NCBI GenBank assembly: GCA_951406725.2
Contig: OX597815.1
Span: forward strand, 186,682,001 to 186,746,000
Length of the DNA: 64,000 nucleotides
Source: Octopus vulgaris
Taxonomy: Eukaryota
Direction: 5' to 3'
In this document: positions 718 through 60,514 of the stretch, one piece after another
How the letters are laid out: each line of letters begins with the position of its first letter
Numbering within the stretch: the stretch's first letter is position 1
Program-made: the position numbers and the translations under genes
The notes under the pieces: generated by a model
The model's input: the letters and a program-made list of their open reading frames with translations, nothing else
Database searches by the model: none
Told to the model about the DNA's origin: nothing

Positions 718-1621
718 TATACGTGGAAAATGAGACTGGAAAACATGTATAAAATGAATTGTCATAAAACAGAATAAACAGGAGATTGTTATACATTTAC
801 CAGTTTTAATAATGGCATATTTTAACCACAGAAAGCTTAAATTGAAATTGAATAATGGTGGCTTATTTTAAGTATTCAATGTGTACATAGAAAATATTCA
901 ATGGCTGATAAAAATTGTATATATGTTATAGAATTGTAGATAAAACTTTTACACCAAGCTTAAAAAATATTGGAACTGAGTGACGTAAACACATTCCACT
1001 GTAAATGAACGTCTTTGTGAAATATAACTTATTCATTGTAAACAGCTTAGGATAAATAAAAATTGAATTTTTTAACGAAATCTGACACGTCAATAGTCTC
1101 ATATTCTACGACCAATGTTTATCTGGCTCTATATATTCCTCACCCATCCTTTCCTTCTTTGTAGGTCTTTCGATTCTCTTTTTTTCCCCTCTCATCCATT
1201 GTCTTTCTATCAATTTTACTCTAACTTTTCTCTCTCCCTCGCTAGCTCATTATTTATTTATCTATATTATATGGGTTTTTTTCAATCAGAACAGAGTTTC
1301 GGATAAAGCATATATCAAATACATCCAAATATATAAAATAATAGGAGTAATGTTGTTTAACAGCAGAAATGAAAGGATTGAGACGTGTTTGTGTTTCGGT
1401 TCTGTTTTTTTCTTCTTTATTCTATCAAACAAATGCAAAGACTTCTCACAAAAATCAATATGAACATATGGCAAATATTAAAATCAATGTCATTACCAAT
1501 GTAAAATCTCAGTCACATAAAAATGCTGGATGTATAATACTTGTTTTGATTGGCTTTTTGGAGGTTTTGTTGTTTGTTTTCTGTTGTGTCCTTTTTTTTT
1601 TTTTTTGCTCTTATTCTTAAG

Positions 1622-1881
1622 AAAAAAATTGATACTGCAGAAAAATTACTCTGTTGCTATAGAAACCGAGAGGGTGATAGACTGTTTCTTACGAATAGTA
1701 ATATCCTTCATAAAATAACAGCGAAAAATTTATTTTACCAATCGGCATCGATGTTTAATGCGATGCTCGACTCTGTACATAACAGGACGATGTTGACTTA
1801 TGTTCCCTGGGAAATGACACCAGCATCAGAAAAAAGTTACTATGATGTTTTTGACATCCATAGTATGGAGATAACGAATGG
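1622..1881 (+). CDS. Candidate internal coding exon of an unidentified gene (KKIDTAEKLLCCYRNREG...YYDVFDIHSMEITN)
   Basis: Long poly-T tract with AG at 1620-1621, 86 open codons of non-repetitive sequence in AT-rich DNA, and GG|GTAAAC donor at 1882 just before the in-frame stop. No protein family recognised. Confidence 0.4.
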
Positions 1882-2044
1882 GTAAACAAAAATAAAGCCA
1901 TCATTGGAGAGACAAAAAAATATCAACATTAATTACGAAATTGCAGTCTATAACAGAGAAGACGGACATTTGTTTAAATTAAAACCACATTTATGTTGTA
2001 ATTTTAATATTATCTTTCTGTGATAATCTTTCTTACGATAATCT

Positions 2045-3360: not shown

Positions 3361-4142
3361 CCAATACCGCAAGTTATGCAATAACTCTACCAATTTACTG
3401 TCTTAGTGACATACTGGGAATCATTTTAATTGACTATAATCCAAACTAGTAAATTTATGACTCTGCGCCAAGGCAAGAAATTAATATTGTCTCTGATGAA
3501 GTACATTGGATGCCAGAATCATCAAAATCCGGAGAAAGTTCTTTGTTGTATTTGGTTACTTTCGTTTAGTTTTGTTTCCAATTCAAACAACGCTGGGGGG
3601 TCGAATTCGCCGTTTCTCCCTTCGCTGTCAATACAATAAGTACTTCTGAAGTTCTGTAGTAGAGGTAATTGACTGTATTGCTCTCTGAACCGTTTGGATT
3701 TCTGCCAATTTTATAAAGAAATCTTCCCTGTTAGTGATTTATTCAGGATGTAGCAAACGAAAAAGAAAAAACAATAAATCTGACATGCTAGCAAATAAAG
3801 TATTTCTATGAAGCTATGAATTGTATATAAAAACATTGACCAATGCGGCTTAAGTGTTTTATATTGATGTGGTGGATATTTTTCTTAAGTCGCAAACAGC
3901 TTTCTTTTATTCTTAGCAAGATTCTCGTAAATCTTTATTAGGATATTATGAAAGATACTTTTAAAATATTAGACATTTCTGTGAATCAAACAAAGAGTTA
4001 ATTCAGTATACTATGAATACATTTATATTTATTCATTACATTAATTTAGGATTCAATTTTCGTTTTAAAATTTTATCTCATGCTTTAATTTAAGATTTCA
4101 ATTTTGATCATTATTGCATGTTTAATAAATATCATGTGACAA

Positions 4143-4925
4143 AGCGACGAGCTGCCAGAAATGTTAGGATGCCGGGCGAAATGCTTAGCGGTGTTTCGTC
4201 CGCCGCTACGTTCTGAGTTCAAAGTCCGCCGAGGTCGACTTTGCCTTTAATTCTTTCGGGATCGATAAATTAAGTACCTATTTTTTTACTACCCACAAGG
4301 GGCTAAACACAGAGAGGACAAACAAGGACAGACAAGCGGAATAAGTCGTAACTGGTACTTAATTTATCGACCCCGAAAGGATGAAAGGCAAAGTCGACCT
4401 CGGCGGAATTTGAACTCAGAACGTAATGGCAGACGAAATACAGCTACGCATTTCGCCAGACGTGCTAACGATTCTGCCAGCTCGCCGCCTTAAATTAAGT
4501 ACCAGTTACGCACTGGAGTCGATGTAATCGACTTAATCCGTTTGTCTGTCCTTGTTTGTCTTCTCTGTGTTTAGCCCCTTGTGGGTAGTAAAGAAATAGG
4601 TATTTCGTCTGCTGTTACGTCCTGAGTTCAAATTCCGCCGAGGTCGACTTTGCTTTTCATCCTTTCGAGGTCGATTAAATAAGTACCAGTTACGCACTGG
4701 GTTCGATATAATCGACTTAATCCGTTTGTCTGTCCTTGTTTCTCCGCTCTGTGTTTAACCCCTTGTGAGCAGTAAAGAAATAGGTATTTCGTCTGTCTTC
4801 ACGTTCTGTGTTTAAATTGCCTTTCAGTGTCGATAAATTAATATCCATTTGCGTACTGCGGTCGATCTAATCGACTGCCCCATCCCCTAAAATTTCGGGC
4901 CTTGAGCCTAGAGTACAAAAGAATA
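4143..4925. mobile_element. SINE family A cluster: + strand multimer interrupted by an antisense family A2 copy (4279-4490)
   Basis: Head at 4143. The antisense insert is flanked by a 13-bp TSD taaattaagtacc (4266-4278/4491-4503). Two A2 tails are each followed by ggtatttcgtc, and the cluster ends in an A1 tail. Confidence 0.9.
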
Positions 4926-10390: not shown

Positions 10391-11225
10391 ATTATGTATG
10401 AGGGTGTACGTGTGTATAAAATTATGCGCGTGTGTTTGTGTATATACGAAGATAACCAGTAAACATACTTTGCATTTTATAGGAATTTTATCGATATTAT
10501 ATGGGTGTGCCTGCTCAGCTTAGCGGAAAATCAATTGTACAACAATCATGATACCCTACTTAAGAACACTATTGAGCAGAAACGAATTGGTGGTGTTTTA
10601 CATGTAGAAAGACATGATCATGCGCAGACACACACGCTTGTACATGGGAGCAGTTGTGGGCATATGTGTGTGTCTGCGTGTACGGTAGAGCCCTAACAAA
10701 TACTGTTTTGCATGTAAAACGATTAAATTTTATTAAATCTTAAGGTTTTATTTCATTAAAAAAACCTAGTGATTCTTATTTATCAATATAGAACACTTCA
10801 TAGTTCATTTATAACAGCTAGATTATATTTCAGTCTGTGATATTGCGTATTGGTATATAACTTCTAATAATATCGCTAAATATGGTTTTTCTGTCTATGC
10901 ATAAATTTAAGCAAGATTACATTATTGTATTTTATGTCATATCACATCTGGTAGAGGCAATAAATATTTCTTTTTTCTGACTGCAGCGTTTAAATTGAAA
11001 ATATATGAATTCCATAGGCGCAGATACACCGGGAATTTATATAAACTATGTTTTGTAATTAATTCACAAACAAACCTTGCTACGGTCTCATTTAATAATC
11101 TTTCATTTCGTATATATATTTTTCGTTCAGTGTTTCCTAGACTAAAATTTGGCGTATGGTTATCAGATCACAAAAATATCATGATGTGTAGATGCTGGGA
11201 TGAGAGTTCATTTTTTTTTTTTTCA

Positions 11226-11510
11226 ATTAAATAAGTACCAATTACGCACTGGGGTCGATATAATCGACTTAATCCCTTTGTCTGTCCTTGTTCGTCCCCT
11301 CTGTGTTTAGCCCCTTGTGGGTAGTAAAGAAATAGAAATAGGTATTTCGTCTGTCTTTAAATTCTCAGTTCAAATTCCGCCGAGGTCGACTTTGCCTTTC
11401 ATTCTTTCGGGGTCGATAAATGAAGTACCAGTTGTGTACTGAGACCGATCTAATCGACTGGCCCCTTCTCCCAAAATTTCTGGCCTTGTCTATAGAGTAG
11501 AAACGAATAT
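11226..11510 (+). mobile_element. SINE family A dimer (truncated A2 unit + A1-tailed unit)
   Basis: A2 tail ...aaagaaatagaaata followed by ggtatttcgtc at 11341, then core and A1 tail. Confidence 0.88.
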
Positions 11511-14161: not shown

Positions 14162-14291
14162 AGACACACCTTCTGTGCCCTTCTGATATTTGCAAAGGAA
14201 GGTCATCCCCTCTCGAAAACCTAAGTGATACATTTTTCGAGAGGGGATGACCTCCCTTTGCAAATATCAGAAGGGCACAGAAAGTGTGTCT
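14162..14291. repeat. Near-perfect inverted repeat (58-bp arms, 14-nt loop)
   Basis: 14162-14219 matches the reverse complement of 14234-14291 at 56/58. Confidence 0.95.
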
Positions 14292-15208: not shown

Positions 15209-15608
15209 TGGTGGTGAGCTAGCAGAATCGATAGCACGCCGGGCGAAATGCTTGGCGATATTTCGTCAGCCGATAAGTTCTGAGTTCAAATTCCGCCGAG
15301 GTCGACTTTGCTTTTCATCCTTTCGGGGTCGATTAAATAAGTACAAGTTACGCACTGGGGTCGATATAATCGACTTAATCTGTCTGTATGTACTTGTTTG
15401 TTTCCTCTGTGTTTAACCCCTTGTGGGTAGTAAAGAAATAGAAATAAGGTATTTCGTCTGTCTTCGTGTTCTGAGTTCAAATTCCTCAGATGTCGACTTT
15501 GCCGTTCATCCCTTCGGGGTCGATGAAATAAGTAGCAGCCGAGTGCTAGGGTCGACGTAATCGACTATCCCCTAAATTTCAGGCCTTGTATCTATAGCAG
15601 AAAGGATT
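15209..15608 (+). mobile_element. SINE family A dimer (A2 + older A1-like unit)
   Basis: Head, core, A2 tail, junction to ggtatttcgtc at 15448, second core and tail. Confidence 0.88.
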
Positions 15609-17332: not shown

Positions 17333-18017
17333 GTTTGTATGCACACACATATTTGTATAAATAGTATTTCCCTGTAGTGGCCTCTTTCTTTCAATATTTT
17401 TCAAATCTGCTATCGTTCTTTCCATTCAGTTTTTGCTCTGACAGTTGCACATTTCATTCGCTAATTTTTGTTGCCTTCACCAGCTGACATTTCTGTTCTC
17501 TAAGGTTTCTACTCGAAACCTTTGGCTTCTTTTTTTCCTCGGGATGTAAACTTTATTTCACTCTTTGAATTAATAACGTTTAGATAGACTTTAAAAAATA
17601 ATACTGATAATGGATAAGTTACCTGCTGGTTTTCAAAATTCAGTAAACATGTTTCTCATAACTTTTATATCCCAAATTGTACAACAAAACTATATATTTT
17701 TGCTGAGATGACTTTATAGTTATGATCAATTTTTTTTAATATTTTCTCATCCGTGGATGTGTTATCAATAAATGTTTCGATCGATATTCTTGGCAATACT
17801 CTACCGATTATATTCTTGAGCTAAGGAATTGAGAAACAATGTTTCGAAATTCAATTGCCGGCCTGATTCAGGAATGAAGTTTGATGACAAGTGAAATAAA
17901 TTCTGCGAAAAACTTTCTCTTAGCAACACATCCAAGGTGAAGGCATGGCTTGAAAATCAGATATCACTAAAAACCCCTTTACTTCATCGACATTTCTTGT
18001 TAGATATATATTTGATT

Positions 18018-19857
18018 GATGGCCCCCTCCCCAAAAAGTTCGGGCCTTGTGCCTAGAGTAGAAAGGAATATATATTTGATTAATGGCGGCGAGCTATCAG
18101 AAACTTTAGCGCGCCGGTCGAAATGCTTAGCGGCTTTGTTAGGTGTGGTTAATGCTGTGGTGTATTCTTGGAATACGTGATGGTGGCAGGAGCAAAAGTT
18201 AATCGTGAAAAGTCAGTTGGCTTGCAGCTCGGCACCTGGAGAGGCAAGTCGATGCCTCCTGACAGCGTTTAAGTTGCTAGGAGTCTGGTTTGGATCAGGC
18301 CTTCAAATAAAGAAGAACTGGTTCGAGGTAGCGAGCAGGGTGGCCCACGTAGCCAAGACCTGGTCTGTACGGTGGCTATCCCTGAAAGGGAGGGCACAAG
18401 AGGCGAATGTGTTCATCGCATCGGTCATCACCTACCGCCTAACCGTCGTTCCCTGCCCTGATTCGTGGTTGGGCAAGCTGGAAAGACAGCTCTTCCGCTT
18501 CTTGGAGAAGGGCTCGAATCCGCTTGTGAGACGCTCTATTTGCTGCCAACAACCTTTAAAGGGTGGGCTAGGGATGCCTTGGCTGTTGATGCGCAGGCAC
18601 GCGCTGAGGTTGAGGCATCTGTGGCTCCATCTCGATGATGATCGGATGTGGTCTCCGCTGGCGAAAGTTCATTTGTTTCGGTGGACTGGATACTTGGTTC
18701 TATCGTAGATCGAAGTTGGGTACATGGTTTACGGAGTGTCATAAGGCTCTCCGGATATTCTATCTCTCGGACAATGCCTGCGGCAGTGGTTCTACCACAT
18801 TCTTTTTATTTAAAACAAATAAAATAATAACAAATATAAAATCAATTATATGTTTTGGTAGAGGCGCAATGTGACGATACCTTGAGGGAAGCCCTAGGTC
18901 TCGATGATAATCAGCTGGCCAGTCTGTTCCAACGTACATTCGGGCCGAAGACGCTGGATAACTTCCAGAAATCTTTGGCATGGCAATGTTACCGAGGAGC
19001 CCAACCTGTCTGGGACAAGCTCGCAAGGCATGGTGGCCCTGACCCACTGATCTGTCCAAGATGTGGGCGGGACAGGGAAACCGTCCCGCACGCTATTGTT
19101 CAGTGTTCGGAGGTGTCAGATGTGTGGGTTTATGCTGAGCAACTGTTCTCAAGTACAGGAATCGACTGAGTCAATAGTAAAAATTGACTCACCGGATTTC
19201 CTATCGAAAGAAGGTAAGAATTGCTTTCTCATCGTAGTAGCAATTACGAGTGAGGTGGTTTGGAAGACGCGAATGAGAGGGTTAATAGGCATTTTTATCT
19301 CTGACCCTAGCTTGGTGAATTTCTTCACCTCCACCTAAGAAGGCAAATAGGGTTAGAGAGAAAATGCCTGTATGCGAAAATGTTCCAAGATCGATAGAAG
19401 AATGTCGCACGAATGTTGCGTGTGGGTGGAACCGCGTGAATACAATGCAGGAAGAACCCAAAGCAACACTGATGAGGCGGGGCTCGTGGGATCCGAGCAT
19501 ATCCTGCCTCCCTACTCCTTTCTGTATTGTTGTCTTGTATATAATATTATTCGAACTATTCCTATTTATGTAAAATTTTTAAATCCATCTTTTTGTTAAC
19601 TCATACGATAAATCTGACCCCATATCAGATTGTACTGTCCCCTCTTTGTTGTCCCTTCGTGGGAAATAAGAAATTTTGCGAAATGCTTTGCGGTATTTCG
19701 TCTGTCTTTATGTTCTGAGTTCAAATTCCCCCGAGGTCAACTTTCCCTTTCATCCTTTCGGGGTCGATAAATTAAGTACTAGTTGCGTACGTGGGTGGAT
19801 GTAATCGACAGGCCCCCTCCCCCAAAATTTCGGGCCTTGTGCCGAGAGTAGAAAAGA
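18018..19857 (+). mobile_element. SINE A1 3' fragment plus a full SINE A1 that hosts the LINE insertion
   Basis: Fragment 18018-18067. Host head 18085-18133 resumes at 19679-19857. atatatatttgatt occurs at 18004, 18068 and 19858. Confidence 0.88.
18134..19678 (+). mobile_element. L1/Tx1-clade LINE, 5'-truncated and frameshifted ORF2 with 3' UTR
   Basis: Frames give AGAKVNREKS (RT end), KLLGVWF...WSVRWLSLKGRAQEANVFIAS...KGGLGMP, and the CCHC knuckle CPRCGRDRETVPHAIVQC. 15-bp TSD cgaaatgctt(a/t)gcgg (18119-18133/19679-19693). Confidence 0.9.
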
Positions 19858-20171
19858 ATATATATTTGATTAGCTTCGGAATTGTAATTAAGTTTAATAA
19901 TTGGTAGTGATAATTGTAGAACGAAATTTTGTGGATGACATTTACAAATTTAATGAATCAAAAAAGATCGAACTGTCTAATCTAAACCTTATTACAAGTC
20001 TTAATTTGCTTTGATGCTGCAGAAGCTTAGTCAGAGGAACAGAAGTACACATGACATTTTTGGAAAGGTTATCTGATTGCACTTGAAACGAATGAAAATA
20101 TTGAGAGTTCAAATACTTGCAACAAAGTGAACTTCAGAAAACCAACTCAAGAATTTAGTTATGTTAGTGGA

Positions 20172-21259: not shown

Positions 21260-21639
21260 TATTTCTTTACTACCAACAAGGGGCTAAACACAGAGGGGAC
21301 AAACAAGAACAGACAAACGGATTGAGTCGATTACATCGACCCCAGTGGTACTTAATTTATCGACCCCGAAAGGACGAAAGGCAAAGTCAACCTCGGCGGA
21401 ATTTGAACTCAGAACGTTACGGCAGACGAAATACGGCTACGCATTTCGCCCGGCGTGCTAACGTTTCTGCTAGCTCGCCGCCTTCAAGTCAGCAGAAGTT
21501 CGCCATTACCTTCTGCCGGAGCCGCGTGGAGCTTAGGTATTTCGCTCATAAACACACACATCGCCCGGTCTGAGATTCGAACCCACGATCTCTCGATCGC
21601 GAGTCCGCTACTCTAACCACTAGGCCATGTATCTCCACT
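21260..21639 (-). mobile_element. Chimeric retrocopy: family C-type head fused to a complete SINE A2
   Basis: One 16-bp TSD tgcaacaataaatacc (21244-21259/21640-21655) encloses both parts. Confidence 0.85.
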
Positions 21640-22694: not shown

Positions 22695-23655
22695 TTAATA
22701 ATAAACCAGGAAGTTAGAAAACTGTTGCTTCTTCCTGGAGAAAGCCAATTTTGCAACCTTATTGTTATAGTAATTCTGTAAACAAGAGCAGATATATTTA
22801 TAAGATAAATATACAGGTTGTTTATAGAATCGTATGGGTTGTGTAAAATCTAACCGTCAGTTACCAATTTCATTGCCATACATTTCGATCAGTGTTTACT
22901 CAAATTCGCATTAAAAGTTTTAAAATATCCCTGCATCTTCATATTCTGTAAATTTTAATTGAATTCTTTCAAATTTTGAATTAACTTCCATTTTTTTTTT
23001 CTAATTATCTTTTGCACATAATAATAGCAATCGATTTTCTCTATTGTAAAATTCGTTGCCTATAGGTCTTGCCTTTGGTTAAATTATGCAACAAAATCTG
23101 GAATGTATTTAATAATAGCATTAGATGTCTGTAAGTGTTAGCGGGGAATAAATTACGCACCAAAATACGTTGCTATTTTTGAGATGTTATTGGAAATTTT
23201 GTTTCAGTCTTCACGTTCATCATTTTGACGACAAAAACAAAACTGGTTTCCTTCTAAAAACCCAGAGAAAATGTTATATAATAATTCGAGAAAAAAAAAG
23301 CTACATAGAAATTGAGAATGCTAAAACAAACAGAAAATAAAAACACAATAGAGTTGTGCATATTTGAATTATGAGAAGCTGTATTTTCCCTTCACAGCGA
23401 AGAAATTCTTATGGTGGTGTATTTTTGTAGGTAGCAAAGTATAACCAAACCGAACTTTTACTATTTCATTTCCACACAATGCCGAAACCAAATAGAAGTA
23501 AAATAATGCCATTTTGATTTAAAAGAAAAATATACATGGTTACTTCACAGTTCATAAATTGAACAGAATGGTTAAAGTGTTTCCATGAATTGTTATAAAT
23601 TAAATTGAGCGCATCATATACAAGTCAAATCTACCGACAATATTTATTCCTTGAA

Positions 23656-24317
23656 GGCGGCGAGCTGGCAGAAACGTTAGCACGCCGGGCGAAATGCGTA
23701 GCCGTATTTCGTCTTCCGTTACGTTCTAAGTTCAAATTCCGCCGAGGTCGACTTTGCTTTCATCCTTTCGGGGTCGATAAATTAAGTACGAGCTACGCGT
23801 TGGGGTCGATATAATTGACTTAGTCCGTTTGTCTGTCCTTCTTTGTCCCCTCTGTGTGTAGCCTCTTGTGGGTAGTAAAGAAATAAGATACGTTGACACG
23901 CCGGGCGAAATGCTTAGCGGTATTTCATCTGTCTTTACGTTCTGACTTCAAATTCCGCTGCGGTCGACTTTGCCTTTCATCCTTTCGGGGTCGATAAATT
24001 AAGTACCATTTGCGTACTGCTGTCGATCTGATCGAGTGGCAACCACCCCCAAAATTTCGAGCCTTGTGCCTAGAGAAGAAAAGAATAGTTATTTCGTTAT
24101 TGCCCACAAGGAGTTAGACATAGAGGGGACAAACAAGGACAGACAAACGGATTAAGTCGATTACATCGACCCCAGTGCGTAACTGGTACTTAATTTATCG
24201 ACCCTGAAGGAATGAAAGGCAAAGTCGACCTCGGCGGAATTTGAACTCAGAACGTAACGGCAGACGACATACCGCTAAGCATTTCGCCCGGCGTGCTAAC
24301 GTTTCTGCCAGCTCGCC
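23656..24317. mobile_element. SINE A dimer (+, 23656-24088) abutting an inverted SINE A2 (-, 24090-24317)
   Basis: Head, core and tail motifs read directly on both strands. Confidence 0.88.
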
Positions 24318-24651
24318 TACCGACAAAGATATGTTCCGGGCAAGTAAATTAAACTGGGTAGAAAAGCGCATGCCTTACACATCTTGTTGCAATGAGTAAG
24401 GTTCCAGTACTGAAAGGAAATGTGAAAAAAGTTACACACTAAATGAGGTGGAATGAATATATTCCATCATGAATATAATACTTTGTGTGACATTCCAAAT
24501 ATTTATTATTTATGTATATATATTTTTGTTTACGTATATATTTTCGAGTTTACAATCAATTCAGTAGTTTGTGCATTTGCAACATTGAAACATTTATATT
24601 TAGATATTCCTTGTTAAACAGGACTTAATTTCATATCTCTCAAAATTCTTA

Positions 24652-25252: not shown

Positions 25253-25510
25253 CAAAGTAAGTGTTTGCAAGCTTTGCGTCCGTGACCTATTGCACTTTTC
25301 AAATAATAAACAGACTGAAATAATGAGCTTAGACAATTAAAACAAATTTTCTTTCGGAATAATGTTTTTGCTTATTGCTGCATATGAAAGAATTAATTCC
25401 ACTTAAATGAAGTAGATGGTGATTCTGCTAAATTGAATAATGAAATATAATTTAGGTGTCATTTCTTTCTTTTAGGCAGCTGCAATGGAATAGATATTTT
25501 GTATATTTGT

Positions 25511-25931
25511 TTCTATTCTAGGCACAAGGCCCGAAATTTTGTGTGGAGGGGGCTACTCGGTTAGATCAACCGCAGTACGAAACTGATAATTAATTTATTG
25601 ACCCCGAAAGGATGAAAAGCAAAGTTGAATTCGGTGGAATTTGAACTCAGAACGTAAAGACAGACGAAATACCGCTACGTATTTCGCCCGGCGTTTCTTA
25701 TTTCTTTATTGCCCACAAGGGGCGAAACATAGAAGGGACAAGCAAGGACTGAAAAAGGGACTAAGTCGATTACAACGACGCCCAGTGTGTAACTGGTATT
25801 TAATTTATCGTACCCGAAAGGATGAAAGGCAAAGTCGACCTCGGCGGAATTTGAACTCAGAACGTAATGGCAGTCGAAATACGGCTACACATTTCGACCG
25901 GCGTGCTAACGTTTCTGCCAGCTCACCGCCT
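25511..25931 (-). mobile_element. SINE family A dimer (A2 + A1)
   Basis: Head at 25931, A2 tail joined to acgccgggcgaaat at about 25694, A1 tail at 25511. Confidence 0.87.
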
Positions 25932-32348: not shown

Positions 32349-32699
32349 TATTCTTTTCTACTCCAGACACATGGCCCGAAATTTTGGAGGAGGGGGCCAG
32401 TCGATTAGATCCGCCCCGGTACGCAACTGGTACTTAATTCATAGACCCCGAAAGAATGAAAGGCAAAGTCGACCTCGGTGGAATTTGAGCTCAAAACATA
32501 AAGACAGACGAAATACCTATTTCTTTACTACCCACAAGGGGCTAAACACAGAGAGGACAAACAAGGACAGACAAACCGATTAAGTCGATTATATCGACCC
32601 CAGTGCGTGACTGGTACTTATTTAATCGTCCCCGAAAGGATGAAAGGCAACCGCTTAGTATTTCGCCCGGCGTGCTAACGATTCTGCCAGCTCGCCGCC
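32349..32699 (-). mobile_element. SINE family A dimer (A2 with internal deletion + A1)
   Basis: Junction aaagaaata|ggtatttcgtc on the - strand at about 32517. Confidence 0.87.
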
Positions 32700-32886
32700 T
32701 GCTTTGTATTATTTTTATCATCATCGTTAGTAAGGCAGTGAGTTGGCAGATGGAAAATAAAGTCGATATGATAAAGTGAAGTATTGCTGTTAATTTATCC
32801 ACTGTCCATCTGTGTCAACATGGGTCGATTAGCGGCAGTACAGTCCAAAATATCCGCCCAATTCAAGGGCTGACGTGAAGCAAAGT

Positions 32887-33183
32887 TTGTTGTTTGTTCC
32901 TTCTCGAGCCATACCTGGCTCATAAGGGCCAGTTTCCCGGTTTCCATGGCGTATAGGTTCCCCACCTGGACGGGACGCCGGTCCGTCGCAGGTGAGCTGC
33001 TAGTCGCAGGAAGAATGAGTGAGAGAAAGTTGTGGCGAAAGAATCAGCAGAAGTTCGCCATTACCTTCTGCCGGAGCCACCTGGAGCTTAGGTGTTTCGC
33101 TCATAAACACACACATCGCCCGGTCTGAGATTGGAACCCACGATCTCTCGACCGCTGCTCTAACCACTAGGCAATGTGCCTTC
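32887..33183 (-). mobile_element. SINE with family C-type head and V-domain-like tail
   Basis: 14-bp TSD acgtgaagcaaagt (32873-32886/33184-33197). cctgcgacggaccggcgtcccgtccagg resembles the V-SINE domain (from recollection, unverified). Confidence 0.85.
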
Positions 33184-33776
33184 ACGTGAAGCAAAGTGGC
33201 ACACCGGTTATTATGTACTGTCGTTATATGAATATTGTCTAACGCAAGGAAACTAAATTATTACTAATACAGCACAAGCACACATTTCATCATGCTCTCT
33301 CGCTTCCTCTCCCTCACTCACTTTTAAGATTGGATTCTCTATTGAAGTAAAGTGCAAGTTAAACTAACTATTCAAACTATAAAGACTGGCGAAATCACTT
33401 ATATGAGTTAAAGGTATGTTTCTGCCATTGTTTACATTTGTAAGATCGCTCTATAAGTGTGTTGTTGTTGTTGAGATAGGCTCTCTTTCTTTTCTGATGA
33501 GAAGATTGCATTTTACACCGTTTATTCCTTTGGAATAATACCATGTTGTCTTCGAAACATATGTCGAAAGTAAAAGAATTTTAATAACATATTCGTTCAA
33601 CTCCATTTATTTACTTACAATACACAAATTAATGCACATTAACCCGGAGTTTCTACCTTTGAATAGGTCGCTTCATCCGTGTTACTTGCGTGAATTGTGC
33701 TACCCTGGTAACTGTTTATTGAATTTTCCATGTTAACGGTAAACAAAGGATAATTCAGTCATCCATTTATATATAT

Positions 33777-36334: not shown

Positions 36335-37122
36335 TGGTTTCAAATTTTGGCAAAAGGATAGCAAGTTGGAAGAAGTGGGTAAGTCGATTACATCAACCCC
36401 AGTGCGCCAAAGGCTAAAGGGTAAAGGTGATCTCGGCGGAATTTGAACTCAGAACGTACACACATATGAAATGCCGTTAAGCATTTTGCCCGGTGTGCTA
36501 ACGATTCTGCCAGCTCACCACCCTAAATTTCTTTATGTGTATTAAGGCGGCGAGCTGGCAAAATCGTTAGCACGCCGGGCGAAATGCGTAGCCGTATTTC
36601 GTCTGCCGTTACGTTCTGAGTTCAAATTCTGCCGAGGTCGACTTTACCTTTCATCCTTTCGGGATCGATAAATTAAGTACCAGTGACGCACTGAGTTCGA
36701 TGTAATCGACTTAATCCGTTTGTCTGTCCCTGTTAGTCCCCTCTGTGTTTAGCCCCTTGTGGGTAGTAAAGAAATAGGTATTTCGTCTGCCGTTACGTTC
36801 TGAGTTCAAATTCCGCCAAAGTCTACTTTGCCTTTCATCCTTTCGGGGTCGATTAAATAAGTACCAGTTACGCACTGGGGTCGATGTAATCGACTTAATC
36901 AGTTTGTCTGTTCTTGATAGTCCTCTATGTGTTTAGCCCCTTGTGGGTAGTAAAAAAAATAGGTATTTCGTCTTCCGCTACGTTCAGAGGTCAAGTTCTA
37001 TCGTAGTCGACATTGTCTTTCATCCTTTCGGACCTGATGAAACAAGTACCAGTCGATCACTGGGCTCGATGTAATTGACTCCCGCAAATTTTCAGGCTTT
37101 GTACCAATGGTAGAAACGATTG
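36335..37122. mobile_element. SINE A cluster: older - copy (36335-36523) head-to-head with a + trimer (36546-37122)
   Basis: Two A2 tails, each followed by ggtatttcgtc (36777, 36962). Confidence 0.88.
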
Positions 37123-39210: not shown

Positions 39211-39872
39211 TTAGCAATGTATCACTTGAATCACTCAAATAATGTCAGCATAGTGTTCAGAATTCACTTACGATTGGAAACGTCTCCTGATCACCCCACA
39301 CACACACACACAAACACAAACACACAAACACCTTAAATCGTAATTATCTCAACCAGCTATGCCTTGTTCAACACCCTTGCCATAAATACTCCATATTCCA
39401 TACTCTTTGAAATAAGAGAAGAATTTCTTATGAATGATAATCGACAACCTAGCCATCCACGTATTTCTGTTAACAATTGATCTCTGCGTGAATAACCGAT
39501 AGGGAAGAAATTCTCATTTAACTCCTTTAATACTAATTAAATGACAATATTATCGATGTTTTATCACGGTGTGGAATCTGACTAGATGAAACGTACTAAA
39601 AGTAAAGCGCTTTAGTTAATCTAAAATATAGCCAATGAGAACGCTTTCATACATTTCGATAAGGAATTGATAACTTTCTATATTCATGCACTAATATTTT
39701 CTGTCATTATATCAACCCTAAAACAACTTAATCAATTTTTTGTATATTTTAAGCCTAATCGACACATAAATCACTAGCAATAACATCACAAGGATAAAGG
39801 ATCGATTAATATTGAAAATAAACAGAAAGAGGGAAGAGTAAAACTGGACACTCTAAACACTAGAGACAAATC

Positions 39873-40674
39873 TTCTTTTCTACTTTAGGCACAAGGCCCG
39901 AAATTTGGAGGGGGGGGAGCCAGTCGATTAGATCGACCCCAGTTCGCAACTGGTACTTATTTTATCGATCTGGAAATGATGAAAAGGCAAAGTCGACCTC
40001 GGTGAAATTTGAACTCAGAACGTAAAGACAGACGACATGCCGCTAAGCATTTTGCCCGGGGCTAAACATAGAGGGGACAAACAAGGACAGACAAAAGGAT
40101 GAAGTCAATTAGATCGACCCCAGTGCGTAACTGGTACTTAATTTATCGACCCCGAAAGGATGACAGACAAAGTCGACCTCGGTGGAATTTGAACTCAGAA
40201 CGTAGCGACGAGCGAAATACTTGTTTCTTTACTACCCACAAGGGGCTAAACATAGAGGGGACAAACAAGGACAGACAAACGGATTAAGTCGATTATATTG
40301 ACCCCAGTGTGAACTGATACTTATTTAATCGACCCCGAAAGGATGAAAAAGGCAAAGTCGACCTCTGCGGAATTTGAACTCAGAACGTAACGGCAGACGA
40401 AATACCGCTAAGCATTTCGCCCGGCATGCTAACGTTTCTTATTTCTTTATTGCCCACAAAGGGCTAAATACAGAGGGGACAAACAAGGACAGACAAAGGG
40501 ACTAAGGCGATTACATCGACACCCAGTGCGTAACTGGTACTTAATTTATCGACCCCGAAAGGATAAAAAAGGCAAAGTCGACCTCGGCGGAATTTGAACT
40601 CACAAGGTAATGGCAGACGAAATACTGCTAAGCATTTCGCCCGGCATGCAAACGTTTCTGCCAGCTCGCCGCCT
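39873..40674 (-). mobile_element. SINE family A tetramer (three A2 units + terminal A1)
   Basis: Four cores gtcgactttg..tcatc..gtcgat read on the - strand, with the head at 40674. Confidence 0.9.
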
Positions 40675-42529
40675 TAATGCCTCTATGTATCTCTAGTGTC
40701 ATAAAATAAATATTTGTATTTACGTCTTCGCGGAATTACATCTTATTATCCCAGAACTTCCAAAGATCTGCGTTTATTTTTTGACAAAGGCATATTCCGT
40801 TCCAAATGATAATCGTTTCCTTTCGCTTCTAACCGTAAACAACCTTTTCTAAATCTCGTCCTCTAAGTAATATTGATTTTCTCGCATTTTCAACAATACA
40901 TTTCTAGTCAAAGGTTGTTTCCTTCAGATTCTTTTTCAGTTGTTTAAATGGATATACTCCTTTCATAACATCTGTTCAATCATGAAAATTGAACTACGTA
41001 AAAGTTTAGTTTGCTTATGGAAAATTAAAGAATTTCTTAACACTTCTGTTGTAAAGTGAAATACGTATCCTACGGCGAAAGTTCTATAACTGCTTGTTGT
41101 AGATTATAGGATTATGACGACAAACAAATTTAAAATTCCTAGAACCTATTTCAGTGCTTCTGTAATAGAATTAAATGTAATCTCTTTCAAATCATTTATT
41201 ATGCTTTACAATTTCTGTTTCAACTATGTTTTATAAGCGATATTATTTCCCAAAATTCATTGTTTTACATGGACGAATCGACATAACCCCCATCTTCTTA
41301 CGATGTTTGATTATGTACCTTTACATTTTCACTTTAAATACCCCCACACCATGATTTATTTACTCTTAATTATTTCATAGTTGATTATTGTGAAATACTA
41401 GTCAATTGATTACGGTAAAGTACTGGTCAACTTATCGAACTTGGTCAGTCCAAACGTTTGTAATCGTAAGAAAATGTCCAAACATACTTTCACCAAACTA
41501 CCTAAAGTTTGCTTCTTATTTATCTACTAATAAATTCGTATTTAACACATAGTGTGTTGCATGAAACATAGAATAAAATCAAAGCAGAGATGGGAAATTC
41601 TATTGTTATTTGAAAAGTAATTCTTAAAATTTTCTAAGTCTAATTCTTGAAGCGAAGATTAGAAGTAGATGGAATCCGCTTAGTATATAACTGCGTCTTA
41701 TCTGTTGACCTCAGAATGATAAAAGATGAGGCCTTTTCCCAGCACAACTTCAATCTATGACGTAAAGAGACAAAATTAAATAATAACGGTCAAACGACTT
41801 ACAGTTTTGCCAGTTTATTGCTCTCTTTGTATCGAAGCCATATTACCTTAACAGTAGACTGTCAAAGTTGTTAAGTCTGATGCGAAAATGCTTTGTGTTA
41901 TTCTAATTACGTTATTTACACCCTGAATTCAAAAGCTGTCGGGATCGATTCGGCCGTTTATGTTGGAGGGGTCTTTTTATAAAATGAGTACCCATCGACT
42001 ACTGGAACTGATGTCGTCGACTGTGATCGTCAGAAATCTATATACCCAAGTTGTCTATTTGAACGCTTTTTGCCTTTTACTTGGAAATTGAGTGGAGTTA
42101 AAATTCAATAGATTTACAGAAATTCTAAAATGTACTAAATATCATAGTACTGAATACATTTAGTCTCGTATCGCTCTTAAAATTAAACACAAACGCCGTA
42201 TTTTTAAAGGATCGTGCAACTTTCGTTAACATAACAATCAGATATATACTGGAGCTACTTTAAGTAACTATACAATACGTTTTATATGATATAAGGCTAC
42301 GAACACAATATTAATCAATTAATGTGTATCGCAAAGTTAAATACAGAACAAAAAGCAAGTTTTCACGGATGGCTTACTGGAGAAACTTCTCTTCTCTAAC
42401 ATTATACACTGCAGAGACATCAGATTCGTTTCCCAATGCTTCTTTCACAATTCCCTCTGCAGTCAGTCTTACGACATTTATTTGATTCTTCATCGTCTCA
42501 GAAATACTACTACTACTACTACTACTACA

Positions 42530-48007: not shown

Positions 48008-49803
48008 TCAACGAGGAGTTTGCATATTAAGTTGTGTTTGGAATTTTTCAATAAAGAGATTCTCCTTGTTAATTCTCTCATGTGTGGTGATCCCGTCTTT
48101 ACATTGGTAGAAGGGGAATATATAGAATTTGGGGTTTAAGTCTTTAGCACAAGAGTCTAAGTGGTCACTCAGTGGAATTTGTTGGTATTCCGGGAGATTT
48201 ATTTGTTCTTTATGCACCGTTACTCGTTTACGTAACGAGAGACTCGTTTGTCCAACATAATTATGTTGGCAACCAGCGCATGTGAGAACGTAGATAAGGT
48301 TCTCGGAGGAACAGGAGAAGTTAGTCTTGATTTTAAACTTCGTACCTTGTTTGAAGGTAAATTCAGAGCCTTCAAGTAGAAAGGGGCAGGTACCACAGTT
48401 TGAGCGTGCACATTTTATTACTGTTGGGGGTGGATGTGGTGTGTGAAGTTTGGCATTTGTCAAGAGTTTTTTTAAAGATTTGTGTTGCCTTTTGCATTTG
48501 AGGATTTTGTGTGTATTTATAATGTTTTTCATTTTTGGGTCTGTTGACAGTAGACTGAGGTTTTGTATGATTGTGGTGTATGCTTCGATATTTTTGGGGT
48601 TGTGGGTGGAAATGTATGGAAGTATTTTGAGGTTGTGTGTGGTGTTAGGTTGGGTGGTTTTCAGTGTAGTGTTGTCTAGTTCTTTGGCGCGTTTTATTCC
48701 ATACTCTATAAGGGTGGAGGGATATTGATGTTGTAATAGTGTTTTTTTGAGGTCTTGAAGGCGTATTTCTCGTGTTTTTGGATCCGAGACAATGGTGCAT
48801 ACCCTTTTAGCTAAATTGAAAGGGATATTTGTCTTGGTGTGTTTTGGGTGGCATGAACTAAAGAGGAGGTATTGTTGTGAGTCTGTAGGTTTGTGGTAGA
48901 TGTCTGTTATGATTTCGTTCTTAGGTGTTTTTATAATTAGGAGATCAAGGAATGGGAGATGATGTTTGCTTAATTCCATAGTGAATTGGATGTTGGGATG
49001 TATGTTGTTTAGTATGGTTTTGAATTCCAGGAGTTTTTCATAAGGTTCTTTCCATATGATGAAACAATCATCTAAATACCTTTTCCAGTTTTCCATTAGG
49101 TAGGTGTGGAAAACATGTCCAAATTTCTGGCTTGATATTTCATAGAGTGACAGTTCGAAGTAACCCATTATGAGATTCGCAAGGACTGGTGCAGCCTTGG
49201 TACCCATCGCAATGCCACATTTTTGACGGTAGTGTGTGTCGTCGAAGAGAAAAAATTGTTTGTCAGAATGAACTTGAGAGATTCTGTAATAAAAGACTTG
49301 TTAATGCGGTCAGGGAATGTCTCTGGGTGTTTTTCTAGCCAGAAGTCAATTGCCTCTATACCATACTCATGTGGAATGTTGGTGTAGAGGTTGATGAAAT
49401 CAAAGGATACCAGGAGTGCCTCCTCGTTAACTGTTTTCGGGAGGTGTTTGAGCATGTCCAGATCATCCCTAATGAAACTTTTGATGTGGGTAAGGAAAGG
49501 TTTCAAAAGGATGTCTAGGAAGTTACTCAGGCGGTGTGTTTCACAGGAGGTACCAGCCACGATGGGCCTTAGTTTTAGGTCCTCCGGTGCTTTGATGTTG
49601 ATGTGGATGTCAGTGGAGAGTTTACAGGCTTCGGTGATGTATTTGTTTTTATGGATTTTAGGAAGGCCATAAAAAAGGCTGGGCTTGCATTTGAAAATGG
49701 TGATATAATCCCTTTCTTTTTCTGTGAGTCCCTGACCGTGTTGGCGTATGAGTGTGGTGAGGTTCCTAAATTTTTTTTTGCTGTTTGTAGTTGTTAATAA
49801 CCT
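48008..49803 (-). pseudogene. Penelope-type reverse transcriptase / GIY-YIG endonuclease ORF with one frameshift at 49249-49255
   Basis: FYGLPKIHK, LRPIV, SFDFINLYTNIPH, MGTKAAP, RYLDD, LPFLD, linker CARSNCGTC, LIYVLTCAGCQHNYVGQT..R..H..H..E..LN. The Cys linker and CCHH motif suggest the Neptune/Naiad-like group rather than Penelope/Poseidon (inference). Confidence 0.93.
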
Positions 49804-55604: not shown

Positions 55605-55808
55605 GGGCGGCGAGCTGGCAGAAACGTTAGCACGTCGGACGAAATGCTTAGCAGTATTTCATCTGTCTTTACGTTCTGAGTTCAAATTCCGCCGAGGTCG
55701 ACTTTGCCTTTCATCCTTTCGGGGTCGATTAAATAAGTACCCGTTACGCACTTTGTCTGCCCTTGTTTGTCCCCTCTATGTCTAGCCCCTTGTGGATAAT
55801 AAAGAAAT
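55605..55808 (+). mobile_element. Solo SINE A2
   Basis: 23-bp TSD atatatca(a/g)attatgaa(g/c)aacta (55582-55604/55809-55831). Confidence 0.9.
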
Positions 55809-56767
55809 ATATATCAGATTATGAACAACTAAAATAGTGCTATTGATAGTAAATTATTTGCATCAAAAATTAGTATGAGATTCGGATTTGTGCCAGAGCA
55901 GGCCTGGAGAATTTGAAGAACACGCATATTCTGCTAATACAAAAGAAAAATCAGATAAAAAGAAGTTCAACAAATACTTATTCAAAAATACTTAGCAATC
56001 AATTAGTTTGACAGCACACAACACATCCAAATGAAATAAAGTATTATGACTAAATTATGGATGCATTAAAATAATGCTTAAAAGATAGATAAACTCAAAG
56101 TAAAAGATGTTAAGGTGCATCAATATCTTAGCTATTTCAGTCGAAATAGTAATACTTTTGACGGGAAGCCAAATGAATTAACAAAACTTGATAAAAGAAA
56201 ATAATGACTGCATTTAAAATATTGCATACAAAATCTGACAGAGAAAAATTATATTCACCATGAAGGTAAGGAGTTCATTCTATTCCGTAGTATCTACTGT
56301 ATGACTACCAATACCTCCTGCTAAAACATCTGCTAAAGAACGGTGAAAATACGCATGAAAATAAAAATGTGTTTTCTGTCTTCGTGAAGGCTATTAAATA
56401 GAAAACAAGTATCTGAAGTGACAGACGGTCGGTAAGTGAGAGAAAAAACAGATGATTACTTACGAGAAAAAAAATAAAGAAAACTATCATTCCGAACTAA
56501 AATGTAGTCACAGAACACCGTGCTAAATTGATGTCAAGAAAACCATCAAATCAGTCAAAATTGAATGAATAAGCATCATAGAAATAAACCACCCGTGAGC
56601 GTTTTCACTTTTTGGGCAAGACAATGAGACTCTTCGTCTTTTTGACAGCTCGCCAGAACTTCATAACCTATCGGTAGGGTATTTACCAACAATCTATCAT
56701 TTTTCAGTTTTAATACGTTTGTACCCGATCTCCTCTTCAATTTGTACAATGTTCATCTTGCTCTATA

Positions 56768-57240
56768 GCAGAAACGTTAGCACGCCAGGCGAAATGCTTA
56801 GCGGTATTTCGTCTGCGGCGAAATGCTTAGCGGTATTTCGTCTGCGGCGAGCTGGCAGAAACGTTAGCACGCCGGGCGAAATGAGTAGCCGTATTTCGTC
56901 TGCCGTTACGTTCTGAGCTCAAATTCCGCCGAGGTTGACTTTGCCTTTCATCCTTTCGGGGTCGATAAATTAAGTACCAGTTACGCACTGGGGCCGATGT
57001 AATCGAGGTAATCCGTTTGTCTGTCCTTGTGTGTTCCTTCTGTGTTTAGCCCATTGTGGGTAGTAAAGAAATAGGTATTTCGTCTGCTGCTACGTTCTGA
57101 GTTCAAATTCCGCCGAGGTTAACTTTGCCTGTCATCCTTTCGGTGTCGATAAATTAAGTACCAGTTGCGTACTCGGGTCGAGTTAATCGACTGGCCCCTC
57201 TCCAAAAATTTAGGGTCTTGTGCCTAGAGTAGAAAAGAGT
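56768..57240 (+). mobile_element. SINE A1 host with a full-length SINE A2 (56846-57073) inserted in its head
   Basis: 14-bp TSD GGTATTTCGTCTGC at 56832-56845 and 57074-57087, with an extra copy at 56803-56816. Confidence 0.92.
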
Positions 57241-58214: not shown

Positions 58215-58388
58215 ATATGACGTGTAATATTTATAAACAAACGCGAAAGGATCTGTAAGTTACGCAGAAGTTACTATGGAAGACTCATAGAATAAAATGT
58301 ATTATTATACTATGAGTCTTCCATAGTAGCTTTCTCTCCGAAACTTACAAAGTCTTTCGCGTTTCTTTACACATATTATATGTAATAT
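58215..58388. repeat. Imperfect inverted repeat (about 75-bp arms)
   Basis: Perfect 19-bp core tactatggaagactcatag (58272-58290) / ctatgagtcttccatagta (58310-58328). Outer aaacgcgaaag / ctttcgcgttt. Confidence 0.88.
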
Positions 58389-59937: not shown

Positions 59938-60514
59938 CTGAGACCTGCTTCTGTCATGACTGACCACGGGATTACACCGAGAAAGTTATCCTCCCAGGCG
60001 CACAAGTCTGGGCAAGGTTGTTTATGGAAGACCAGCATTCACCCATGCATACCTATTTCTTTATTACCCACAAGGGGCTAAACACAGAGGGTACAAACAA
60101 GGACAGACATAGGTATTAAGTCGATTACATCGACCCCAGTGCGTAACTGGTACTTAATTTATCGACCCCGAAAGGATGAAAGGCAAAGTCGACCTCGGCG
60201 GAATTCGAACTCACAACGTAACGCAGACGAAATACCGCTAAGCATTTCACCCGGCGTGCTAACGTTTCTGCCGGCTCGCCGCCTTTTCACCCATGCATAC
60301 CGGCCTCCCCTCTCCACGCCACCAGTGTTATCCAAGGGAAAGGCAAAGGCCAATACAGTTTGACACCAGTGACGTCACAACTCATTTTACGGCTGAGTGA
60401 ACTGGAGCAATGTGAAATTAAGTGTCTTGCTCAAGAACACAATACGCAGCCCAGTCCTGGATTCGAACTCACAACCTTACGATCGTAAGCTCTAACCACT
60501 GAACCATGCACCTT

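What the first reader, a model, noticed from the sequence alone, without database searches (positions are those of the whole stretch)
56768..57240. A self-targeting SINE: variant A2 inserts at a GGTA motif inside its own family and builds arrays
Seen: family A has one head and core but two tails. A1 ends cttgtgcctagagtagaaaagaat; A2 ends tgtcccctctgtgtttagccccttgtgggtagtaaagaaata. Every multimer in the window is (A2)n followed by a terminal A1-type unit. Nine junctions resume at the same head position, ggtatttcg (4599, 4783, 11341, 15448, 32517, 36777, 36962, 40220 mutated, 57074). Here a full A2 is bracketed by a 14-bp TSD, GGTATTTCGTCTGC, which shows a real insertion at that site. Three other TSD-bounded A2 insertions also have GGTA as the 3' flank: 4279-4490 (antisense into the SINE core), 21260-21639 and 60054-60285. 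Exceptions are the solo copy at 55605 and three junctions further upstream in the head. Inference: A2 uses an endonuclease with a GGTA preference, and each new copy supplies new targets, giving a self-amplifying loop. Some dimers may also have moved as units.
Basis: partly seen in the sequence, partly recalled or inferred. Interest (0 to 1): 0.8.

Follow-up and report, generated by a model that had tools for sequence, protein, structure and literature searches.

The report
SINE that inserts at GGTAT words
A short mobile element, likely from an octopus, inserts preferentially at the DNA word GGTAT, which is common inside its own family, so copies sometimes land in older copies and the joined units are likely recopied together by a LINE-type partner.

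Summary
The GGTA preference is real. Four of 5 TSD-bounded solo A2 insertions start at GGTA (chance about 2e-10). In three public contig sets the top loose end at the A2 3' end falls after GGTAT, with mostly diverse flanks. Some contigs also show A2 copies in tandem across a GGTAT spacer.

The nine junctions are not nine insertions seen in place. Only 56768 keeps a host head; the other arrays lack one, and 4 of 8 carry one clear outer TSD, so they moved as units. A single dimer master is disfavoured: A1 halves are twice as diverged as A2 halves.

'Self-targeting' is motif abundance: family A is 9.7% of bases but holds 37% of YGGTAY sites, and hit rates per site are similar inside and outside. 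The loop is damped: 11 of 14 A2 heads lack GGTA.

New here: an L1/Tx1-type LINE at 18134-19677 ends in the A2 tail, and the A1, A2 and LINE tails share a covarying hairpin. Endonuclease specificity versus RNA-target pairing is unresolved. Closest precedent: SINEU-3/Tx1-Mar.

The parts
56768..56816 (+). 5' part of the host A1-type SINE (5'-truncated head), ending in the 5' TSD copy
56803..56816 (+). 5' copy of the 14-bp TSD GGTATTTCGTCTGC
56817..56845 (+). 29-bp tandem duplication of host head including a second TSD copy (56832-56845); bounded by GGCGA microhomology, likely slippage
   Evidence: mechanism inferred
56846..57073 (+). Inserted A2 (GGGT-tail variant), lacks first 3-5 nt; its head has CCGTA, not GGTA; A-box-like TGGCAGAAACG; no T4 run
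57049..57061 (+). A2 tail hairpin (4-bp stem, 5-nt loop)
57074..57087 (+). 3' TSD copy = junction position
57088..57238 (+). Remainder of host A1 (core and A1 tail); outer TSD weak (score 1)
57213..57225 (+). A1 tail hairpin, same loop, swapped stem pairs
4279..4491 (-). A2 inserted antisense into the core of another copy; 13-bp TSD starting GGTAC
21260..21639 (-). Head of another tRNA-type SINE (21484-21639) fused to A2; 16-bp TSD starting GGTAT; host looks like a decayed A-like core in antisense
   Evidence: (right part score 28, left 18; null max 30)
60054..60285 (-). Solo A2 in an unrelated repeat; 16-bp TSD starting GGTAT; reference for read laying
55606..55809 (+). Solo A2 of the second tail variant; 23-bp TSD starting ATATATC and overlapping its own tail end
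24092..24319 (-). A2 of the second tail variant, antisense, no clear TSD, flank ACTA
4141..4922 (+). A2-A2-A1 trimer with one outer 17-bp TSD (moved as a unit)
32352..32700 (-). A2-A1 dimer, GGTA junction, outer 14-bp TSD
25507..25931 (-). A2-A1 dimer, AGAAACG junction, outer 15-bp TSD
36546..37120 (+). A2-A2-older-type trimer, outer 9-bp TSD
39874..40675 (-). Four-unit array (AGAAACG, mutated GGTA and deletion junctions); no TSD found
23655..24086 (+). A2-A1 dimer, AGATACG junction, weak outer TSD
15213..15606 (+). A2-A1 dimer, GGTA junction, weak outer TSD
11223..11506 (+). Truncated A2-A1 dimer, GGTA junction, no TSD found
18134..19677 (+). 5'-truncated, decayed L1/Tx1-type LINE (ORF2 C-terminal third and ~230-nt 3' UTR) whose last ~45 nt match the A2 tail; inserted in an A1 head with a 15-bp TSD CGAAATGCTT[A/T]GCGG
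19652..19664 (+). Hairpin in the LINE tail (TCCC-TTCGT-GGGA)
18022..18068 (+). A1 tail fragment inserted in tandem into the TSD of the A1 copy at 18085-19858 (target reuse by A1)

Best explanation
A2 is a SINE variant whose copies insert preferentially where the target duplication begins with GGTA(T/C), likely by target-primed reverse transcription with an L1/Tx1-type LINE whose 3' tail it shares, and copies that land in an older family head likely give read-through RNAs that are recopied as whole arrays. Steps: (1) shown: site preference, target reuse in tandem, shared tail. (2) inferred: the LINE protein binds the tail hairpin and nicks at about 5'-TAYY/R (AATA sites for A1 and the second A2 variant, GGTA sites for the main A2 variant). 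(3) inferred: SINE units mostly have no T4 terminator, so the RNA runs on into its own GGUA flank, which would pair with the nicked strand and favour GGTA among nickable sites. (4) shown once (56768): insertion into an aged A1 head. (5) inferred: such a locus is transcribed from the inner A2 promoter through to the A1 tail and moves as A2-A1; a further A2 landing in the head of such a unit gives (A2)n-A1. The family is hit often because it is rich in the word, not because it is recognised as self.
For: 4 of 5 TSD-bounded solos start GGTA, all with a pyrimidine at -1. Top 3' loose end at 60049 = after GGTAT: 811, 1409 and 706 contigs, agreement 0.46/0.42/0.37, against 0.39-0.40 for unique flanks and 0.57-0.60 for family continuations. 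Place 60054 is not among the six shown per run, implying over 2000-fold enrichment if those six are the largest. A2-GGTAT-spacer-A2 joints in 11, 19 and 8 contigs; one printed spacer makes a 15-bp word. Outer TSDs around whole arrays. No T4 in 17 of 27 units, and none between 57073 and the A1 end (first at +286). A1 halves older than A2 halves. LINE tail vs A2 tail score 48, null maximum 30 of 5000. A relative of the LINE, P0010 (73% identical over the best stretch), has Pfam endonuclease/RT/zf-RVT look-alikes and its best PDB match is human L1 ORF2. Hairpin: 93.8% of cells paired, 3 of 4 pairs change on both sides, slid controls lower. 6 of 10 A1-type TSDs printed start AAT.
Against: The one LINE copy does not start its own TSD at GGTA: it starts 15 bp upstream and its far end falls inside GG/TA. 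The shared tail rests on that single LINE copy. Only 1 nested 'source-type' locus against 8 headless arrays in the window. The host-head 5' joint is not among the 15 joints listed (583 not shown). The hairpin is not thermodynamically unusual (z -1.1 to +0.5; in the MFE structure in 4 of 7 folds), and its covariation reflects about four lineages. No RNA ends were observed; the raw-read run gave only 21 reads. Contig counts are not locus counts and were sub-sampled.
Confidence: 0.58

Rival explanations
1. Pure endonuclease specificity: a Tx1-type LINE family that cuts at GGTA mobilises the main A2 variant, while other LINE families mobilise A1 and the second A2 variant; RNA-target pairing plays no part.
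For: Tx1 families are often target-specific through their endonuclease, and different Tx1-Mar families serve different SINEU families (PMC4494074, passages and section 16). O. vulgaris has 80 L1-Tx1 families (supplement row). Pyrimidine at -1 in 4 of 4 GGTA sites.
Against: The two A2 tail variants differ by about 2 nt yet use different words, each matching the sequence at or just after its own 3' end. A1 and A2 share one hairpin type. The only LINE copy is not at a GGTA start.
Confidence: 0.3
2. Arrays form mainly by template switching during reverse transcription: the RT starts on an aged A1 RNA and jumps at GGTA (or AGAAA) to an A2 RNA whose 3' end carries the same word, giving a headless A2-A1 copy with one outer TSD and no nested intermediate.
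For: 7 of 7 assessable arrays are headless. 6 of 9 GGTA junctions follow one A2 subfamily (ATTAAATAAG variant) found in none of the four GGTA solos, yet their downstream halves are privately diverged (three dimers: 10/237 vs 30/275, p=0.005). Both junction classes have microhomology. The head-plus-A2 chimera at 21260-21639 could be a switch product.
Against: 56768 shows a real nested insertion with a TSD of normal length. Missing terminators make read-through from such loci expected. It does not explain the solo GGTA insertions, which still need a target preference.
Confidence: 0.25
3. A few dimeric master genes plus unequal crossover or gene conversion made all arrays; the junction arose once or a few times.
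For: 5 of 9 junctions share two diagnostic changes upstream and four of those the same A1 head type; outer TSDs; arrays of this form exist in the blood clam (PMC11481361, section 15).
Against: Three head types follow the junction and two A2 subfamilies precede it. A1 halves form no clade and carry twice the private divergence (the tree is poorly resolved, 0 starred branches). It does not explain GGTAT flanks on solos.
Confidence: 0.12
4. GGTAT is just the true 3' end of A2 (boundary artefact); there is no target preference.
For: About a quarter to a half of contig depth at the A2 end runs on over GGTAT.
Against: In 4 of 4 GGTA cases the word also starts the 5' TSD copy, so it was in the target before insertion.
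Confidence: 0.03

Closest known systems
SINEU-3 / Tx1-Mar of crocodilians (Kojima 2015, PMC4494074; abstract, passages and section 16 read)
   Same: A SINE likely mobilised by Tx1-type LINEs, inserting preferentially into another repeat, in both orientations at different sites, with tandem copies sandwiching a TSD; the same hitchhiking objection arises.
   Different: There the target is a Mariner transposon (90% of SINEU-3) and the head is snRNA-derived. Here the target is a 4-5 bp word enriched in the SINE's own family, hits outside the family are common, a tail is shared with the LINE, and nested products are remobilised.
Tandem HCD-SINE arrays of the blood clam S. broughtonii (PMC11481361, section 15 read)
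   Same: Both forms occur here: TSD-(SINE-TSD)n and TSD-(SINE)n-TSD with a complete first head and later units truncated at one head position.
   Different: There inner units have truncated tails; here every inner unit has a complete A2 tail and only the last an A1 tail. The section read names no target word.
Dip/B1 multimers of jerboa and dimeric SINEs such as Alu (as cited in PMC10702118, passages read; primary papers not seen); tandem Alu insertion into TSDs (recalled)
   Same: Frequent SINE multimers; target reuse; amplification as dimers.
   Different: Those use full-length units and A-rich targets with poly(A) pairing; here the junction lies inside the head at a G-containing word.
3' microhomology and RNA-target pairing in L1, L2, CR1, RTE, R1Bm, R2Ol (PMC6007223, passages read)
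   Same: TSDs start with the letters at or just beyond the element's 3' end.
   Different: Here the pairing word would come from the previous target via read-through, in a non-autonomous element; not shown.
Octopus tRNA-derived CORE-SINEs OR1/OR2 (Ohshima and Okada 1994; seen only as cited in PMC4824008 and PMC4758252)
   Same: tRNA-type head plus conserved centre, probable octopus origin (a piece of the LINE family is in an Octopus bimaculoides gene model, 43/64 identical).
   Different: No sequence was available to compare, so identity with OR1/OR2 is untested.

Membership tests
tRNA-type SINE | Short non-coding interspersed repeat with TSDs | tested here: met
   About 230 and 200 bp units; TSDs of 13-23 bp
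tRNA-type SINE | Internal Pol III A and B boxes | tested here: inconclusive
   A-box pattern matched in 1 of 2 copies tested, B-box pattern in 0 of 2 (both carry changes); majority line has GTTCAAATTC about 60 nt after the A box (box consensus recalled)
tRNA-type SINE | Head homologous to a named tRNA | tested here: inconclusive
   No ARAGORN or Rfam hit in the window, as is usual for diverged heads
tRNA-type SINE | 3' tail shared with a LINE | tested here: met
   A2 vs LINE end score 48, null max 30 of 5000; one LINE copy only. A1 vs LINE scored 14, not significant
CORE-SINE (OR1/OR2) | Homology to the ~60-bp CORE domain and to OR1/OR2 | not testable with these tools
   No sequence found in main texts or readable supplements (one supplement file not searched; figures not held)
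L1/Tx1-type LINE (partner) | ORF2 with APE endonuclease, RT and zf-RVT | tested here: met
   Window piece has zf-RVT; relatives have RVT_1 and zf-RVT; P0010's N-terminal half retrieves PF03372 proteins and its best PDB match is human L1 ORF2. The window copy lacks the endonuclease part
Tx1 clade | RT phylogeny with named Tx1 elements | not testable with these tools
   No named Tx1 reference proteins were returned
Target-specific retroelement (Kojima criterion) | More than 20% of flanks in one kind of repeat | tested here: inconclusive
   2 of 4 GGTA solos lie in family A proper and a third in a decayed relative; head share of contig loose ends roughly 0-30%
Target-specific retroelement (Kojima criterion) | LINE and SINE share the target | tested here: not met
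   The single LINE copy is in a family A head but its TSD starts 15 bp upstream of GGTA; n=1
Target-specific retroelement (Kojima criterion) | Specificity resides in the endonuclease | not testable with these tools
   Needs a cleavage assay

The most novel reading that the evidence does not exclude
Target memory: a terminator-less SINE transcribes its own 3' target flank and uses it to pair with the next nicked site, so a subfamily inherits a target word (GGTAT) through RNA while sharing one LINE with sister variants that use AATA. The word sits in the family's own head, which builds remobilised arrays, and a G-to-C change in the head of one A2 lineage (6 of 14 heads) is an escape from self-insertion.
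Probability: 0.27. Interest if true: 0.78.

Novelty: new variant of a known kind. Interest (0 to 1): 0.52.

Why it matters
Sequence-targeted SINEs are rare, and the known case (SINEU) is old and inactive. This abundant family offers sister variants with one tail hairpin but different target words. That makes an old question directly testable on a public genome: how much of the insertion site is set by the LINE endonuclease and how much by RNA-DNA pairing. It also gives a concrete route from solo SINE to remobilised array, and warns that array junctions are not counts of insertions. If the endonuclease alone explains it, this is a second SINEU-like system and of moderate interest.

Tried and rejected
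No whole genome was held, so no genome-wide logo. The A2 tail pattern had 0 matches in viral, metagenome and genome contigs. LINE relatives gave no confirmed locus in the three collections, so further LINE 3' ends could not be seen. A fuzzy regex scan missed copies and was replaced by hand-set coordinates. I first read 18086-19860 as a split A2-A1 dimer; rejected when the LINE and its 15-bp TSD were found. The Penelope-like element at about 48.0-49.8 kb was considered as partner and set aside (no shared tail seen). The tree of the 121-column shared stretch has no well-supported branch. No thermodynamic signal for the tail hairpin. A GGTA 27 nt before the head/A2 join at 21484 could be a fossil TSD but is longer than the TSDs seen; not counted. 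Earlier scan findings: three look-ups returned nothing. Literature: searches found no description of a GGTA-targeting octopus SINE. Repbase/Dfam, Ohshima and Okada 1994 and Albertin 2015 (not held) were not seen, nor one supplement file of PMC4824008, so a prior description cannot be excluded.

Full report
Locus. The sequence at 56768-57238 is a 5'-truncated A1-type head ending in GGTATTTCGTCTGC (56803-56816), a 29-bp repeat of the last part of that head (56817-56845), an A2 lacking its first 3-5 nt (56846-57073), the same 14 bp (57074-57087) and the rest of the A1. The simplest reading is an A2 insertion with a 14-bp TSD followed by slippage between two GGCGA words (inferred). The inner A2 differs from its majority at 10/190 non-CpG sites and the host's 3' part at 16/147 (p=0.065). 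The host's own outer TSD is weak.

Is the GGTA preference real? Five solo A2 insertions have clear TSDs; four start with GGTA, each after a pyrimidine. A sixth copy (24092-24319) has no clear TSD and another flank. With GGTA at 0.0025 per site, 4 of 5 has P about 2e-10 and 4 of 6 about 5e-10. The word starts the 5' TSD copy too, so it was in the target. No genome was held, so I laid four public runs on the solo copy at 60025-60315. The raw-read run gave 21 reads and was not used. In the three contig sets the listed loose end at the A2 3' side is place 60049, directly after GGTAT: 811, 1409 and 706 contigs. Their agreement is 0.46, 0.42 and 0.37, near the value for unique flanks at the 5' end (0.39-0.40) and below family continuations (0.57-0.60), so roughly 0-30% continue into the head and the rest are diverse. 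The bare tail end, 60054, is not among the six places shown per run. If those six are the largest, enrichment over random flanks exceeds 2000-fold. About a quarter to a half of depth runs on over GGTAT. Joints from an A2 start back to 60049 (11, 19, 8 contigs) show two A2 copies in tandem across a GGTAT-led spacer, one of 15 bp: target reuse. Limits: contigs are not loci, the tool sub-sampled, and 583 joints and 1210 loose ends were not shown.

Are the nine junctions nine insertions? All coordinates are right. But only 56768 keeps a host head. Of the other eight arrays, seven can be assessed and none has one. Four have a single outer TSD scoring 9-17 (0.5% of random pairs reach 9), two a weak one, two none. 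They moved as units. Seventeen of 27 units have no T4 run, and the first T4 after 57073 lies beyond the A1 end, so read-through is open. Six of nine junctions follow units sharing one diagnostic change (five share two) that none of the four GGTA solos has. A single master is still disfavoured: three head types follow the junction, the A1 halves form no clade (tree poorly resolved), and in 7 of 7 pairs the A2 half is less diverged (31/604 vs 65/671, p=0.002), also for three dimers of that one subfamily (p=0.005). A1 subfamily mixture could inflate this. The junction therefore formed repeatedly on aged A1 templates, either as DNA hosts or as RNA templates.

Self-targeting. Family A covers 9.7% of the window but holds 20% of GGTA and 37% of YGGTAY sites. 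Hits per YGGTAY site are 2/31 inside and 2/53 outside (p=0.62; the 21.6 kb host, a probable decayed relative, counted outside). Nothing beyond the word is needed. The loop is damped: 3 of 14 A2 heads keep GGTA, six share a G-to-C change at its first base (one further decayed), and the rest have other changes including CpG decay. Survivor bias may contribute.

Partner. The 1.5 kb inside the A1 copy at 18085-19858 is a 5'-truncated LINE: zf-RVT hit, matching residues 680-1104 of P0010, an 1111-aa protein whose best PDB match is human L1 ORF2 and whose N-terminal half retrieves endonuclease-RT proteins. It is bounded by a 15-bp TSD, and its last 45 nt align to the A2 tail with score 48 against a null maximum of 30 in 5000. 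A1, A2, an older tail and the LINE share a 4-bp stem around a 5-nt loop with swapped pairs (GCCC/GGGY, GGGC/GCCT, TAGC/GCTG, TCCC/GGGA): 93.8% of cells paired, three of four pairs changed on both sides, above all shuffles on four of five measures and above slid controls. This is about four lineages, I chose the structure by eye from these sequences, and folding energy is unremarkable. Against the simple story, this LINE's TSD starts 15 bp before GGTA and ends inside it. L1 versus Tx1 clade was not resolved. The organism is probably an octopus: a piece of this LINE family opens an Octopus bimaculoides gene model, and the repeats resemble octopus SINEs (recalled). O. vulgaris has 80 L1-Tx1 families, 13 recently active (PMC13282606, first third of text, passages and supplement rows).

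Mechanism. A1-type TSDs start AAT in 6 of 10 printed matches, several weak; the second A2 variant uses AATA-like or AGAAA sites; the main variant GGTA. On the nicked strand AATA and GGTA sites both read TAYY/R, and each word matches the letters at or just after that variant's 3' end. I therefore favour one loosely specific L1/Tx1-type nick plus pairing with the read-through RNA, as described for other LINEs (PMC6007223, passages), followed by remobilisation of nested loci through the A1 tail (0.58 for the whole; about 0.92 for the preference alone). Pure endonuclease specificity (0.3) and template switching as the main source of arrays (0.25) remain open and are not exclusive of each other.

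Known systems. SINEU-3/Tx1-Mar is closest: a Tx1-mobilised SINE that prefers another repeat and forms TSD-separated tandems (PMC4494074). Arrays of both forms are described in a bivalve (PMC11481361, section 15), and frequent multimers in jerboa (PMC10702118, passages). CORE-SINE or OR1/OR2 membership could not be tested. Nine paper searches found no GGTA-targeting octopus SINE; repeat databases and the 1994 and 2015 papers were not seen.

Verdict. A real and strong short-word target preference in a SINE, with a candidate LINE partner; arrays mostly travel as units; self-targeting follows from motif abundance. New variant of a known kind, interest 0.52.

Noticed in passing
window 48008-49760 (-): Penelope-like element: RT and GIY-YIG matches below Pfam cut-offs, in two reading frames.
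   Followed up: no
window 18119-18133 and 19679-19693: The LINE's TSD ends inside the head GGTA (GG/TA), so its second cut, not its first, falls in the word; chance or a related specificity.
   Followed up: partly
window 18005-18085: An A1 tail fragment sits in tandem in the TSD of the next A1; one search also lists A-start to 60119 joints, so A1 reuses its own targets too.
   Followed up: partly
window 21484-21639 (-): Head of a second tRNA-type SINE (89% to 33044-33185) fused to A2 and moved with one TSD; a GGTA lies 27 nt before the join.
   Followed up: partly
heads at 4489, 21481, 23657, 25929, 36547, 56846: Shared G-to-C change that removes the head GGTA in one A2 lineage; possible escape from self-insertion.
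   Followed up: partly
window 60285 and other full-length starts: The commonest 5' boundary in contigs is two bases before GGCGGCG (AAGG...), so the element probably starts with AA or prefers it.
   Followed up: no
window 14162-14291 and 58215-58388: Short self-inverted (MITE-like) repeats in the self-comparison.
   Followed up: no
window 40676-40700 and 39860-39873: The four-unit array is flanked by an inverted 11-bp match rather than a direct TSD.
   Followed up: no
P0045 residues 1-64: An Octopus bimaculoides neprilysin-1 gene model starts with a piece of this LINE family's ORF2 (67% identity): exonisation or a gene-model error.
   Followed up: no
window 1550-1885 (+): Weak Pfam match to a viral DNA polymerase C-terminal domain (E 0.005, below cut-off); probably a decayed retroelement or chance.
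   Followed up: no
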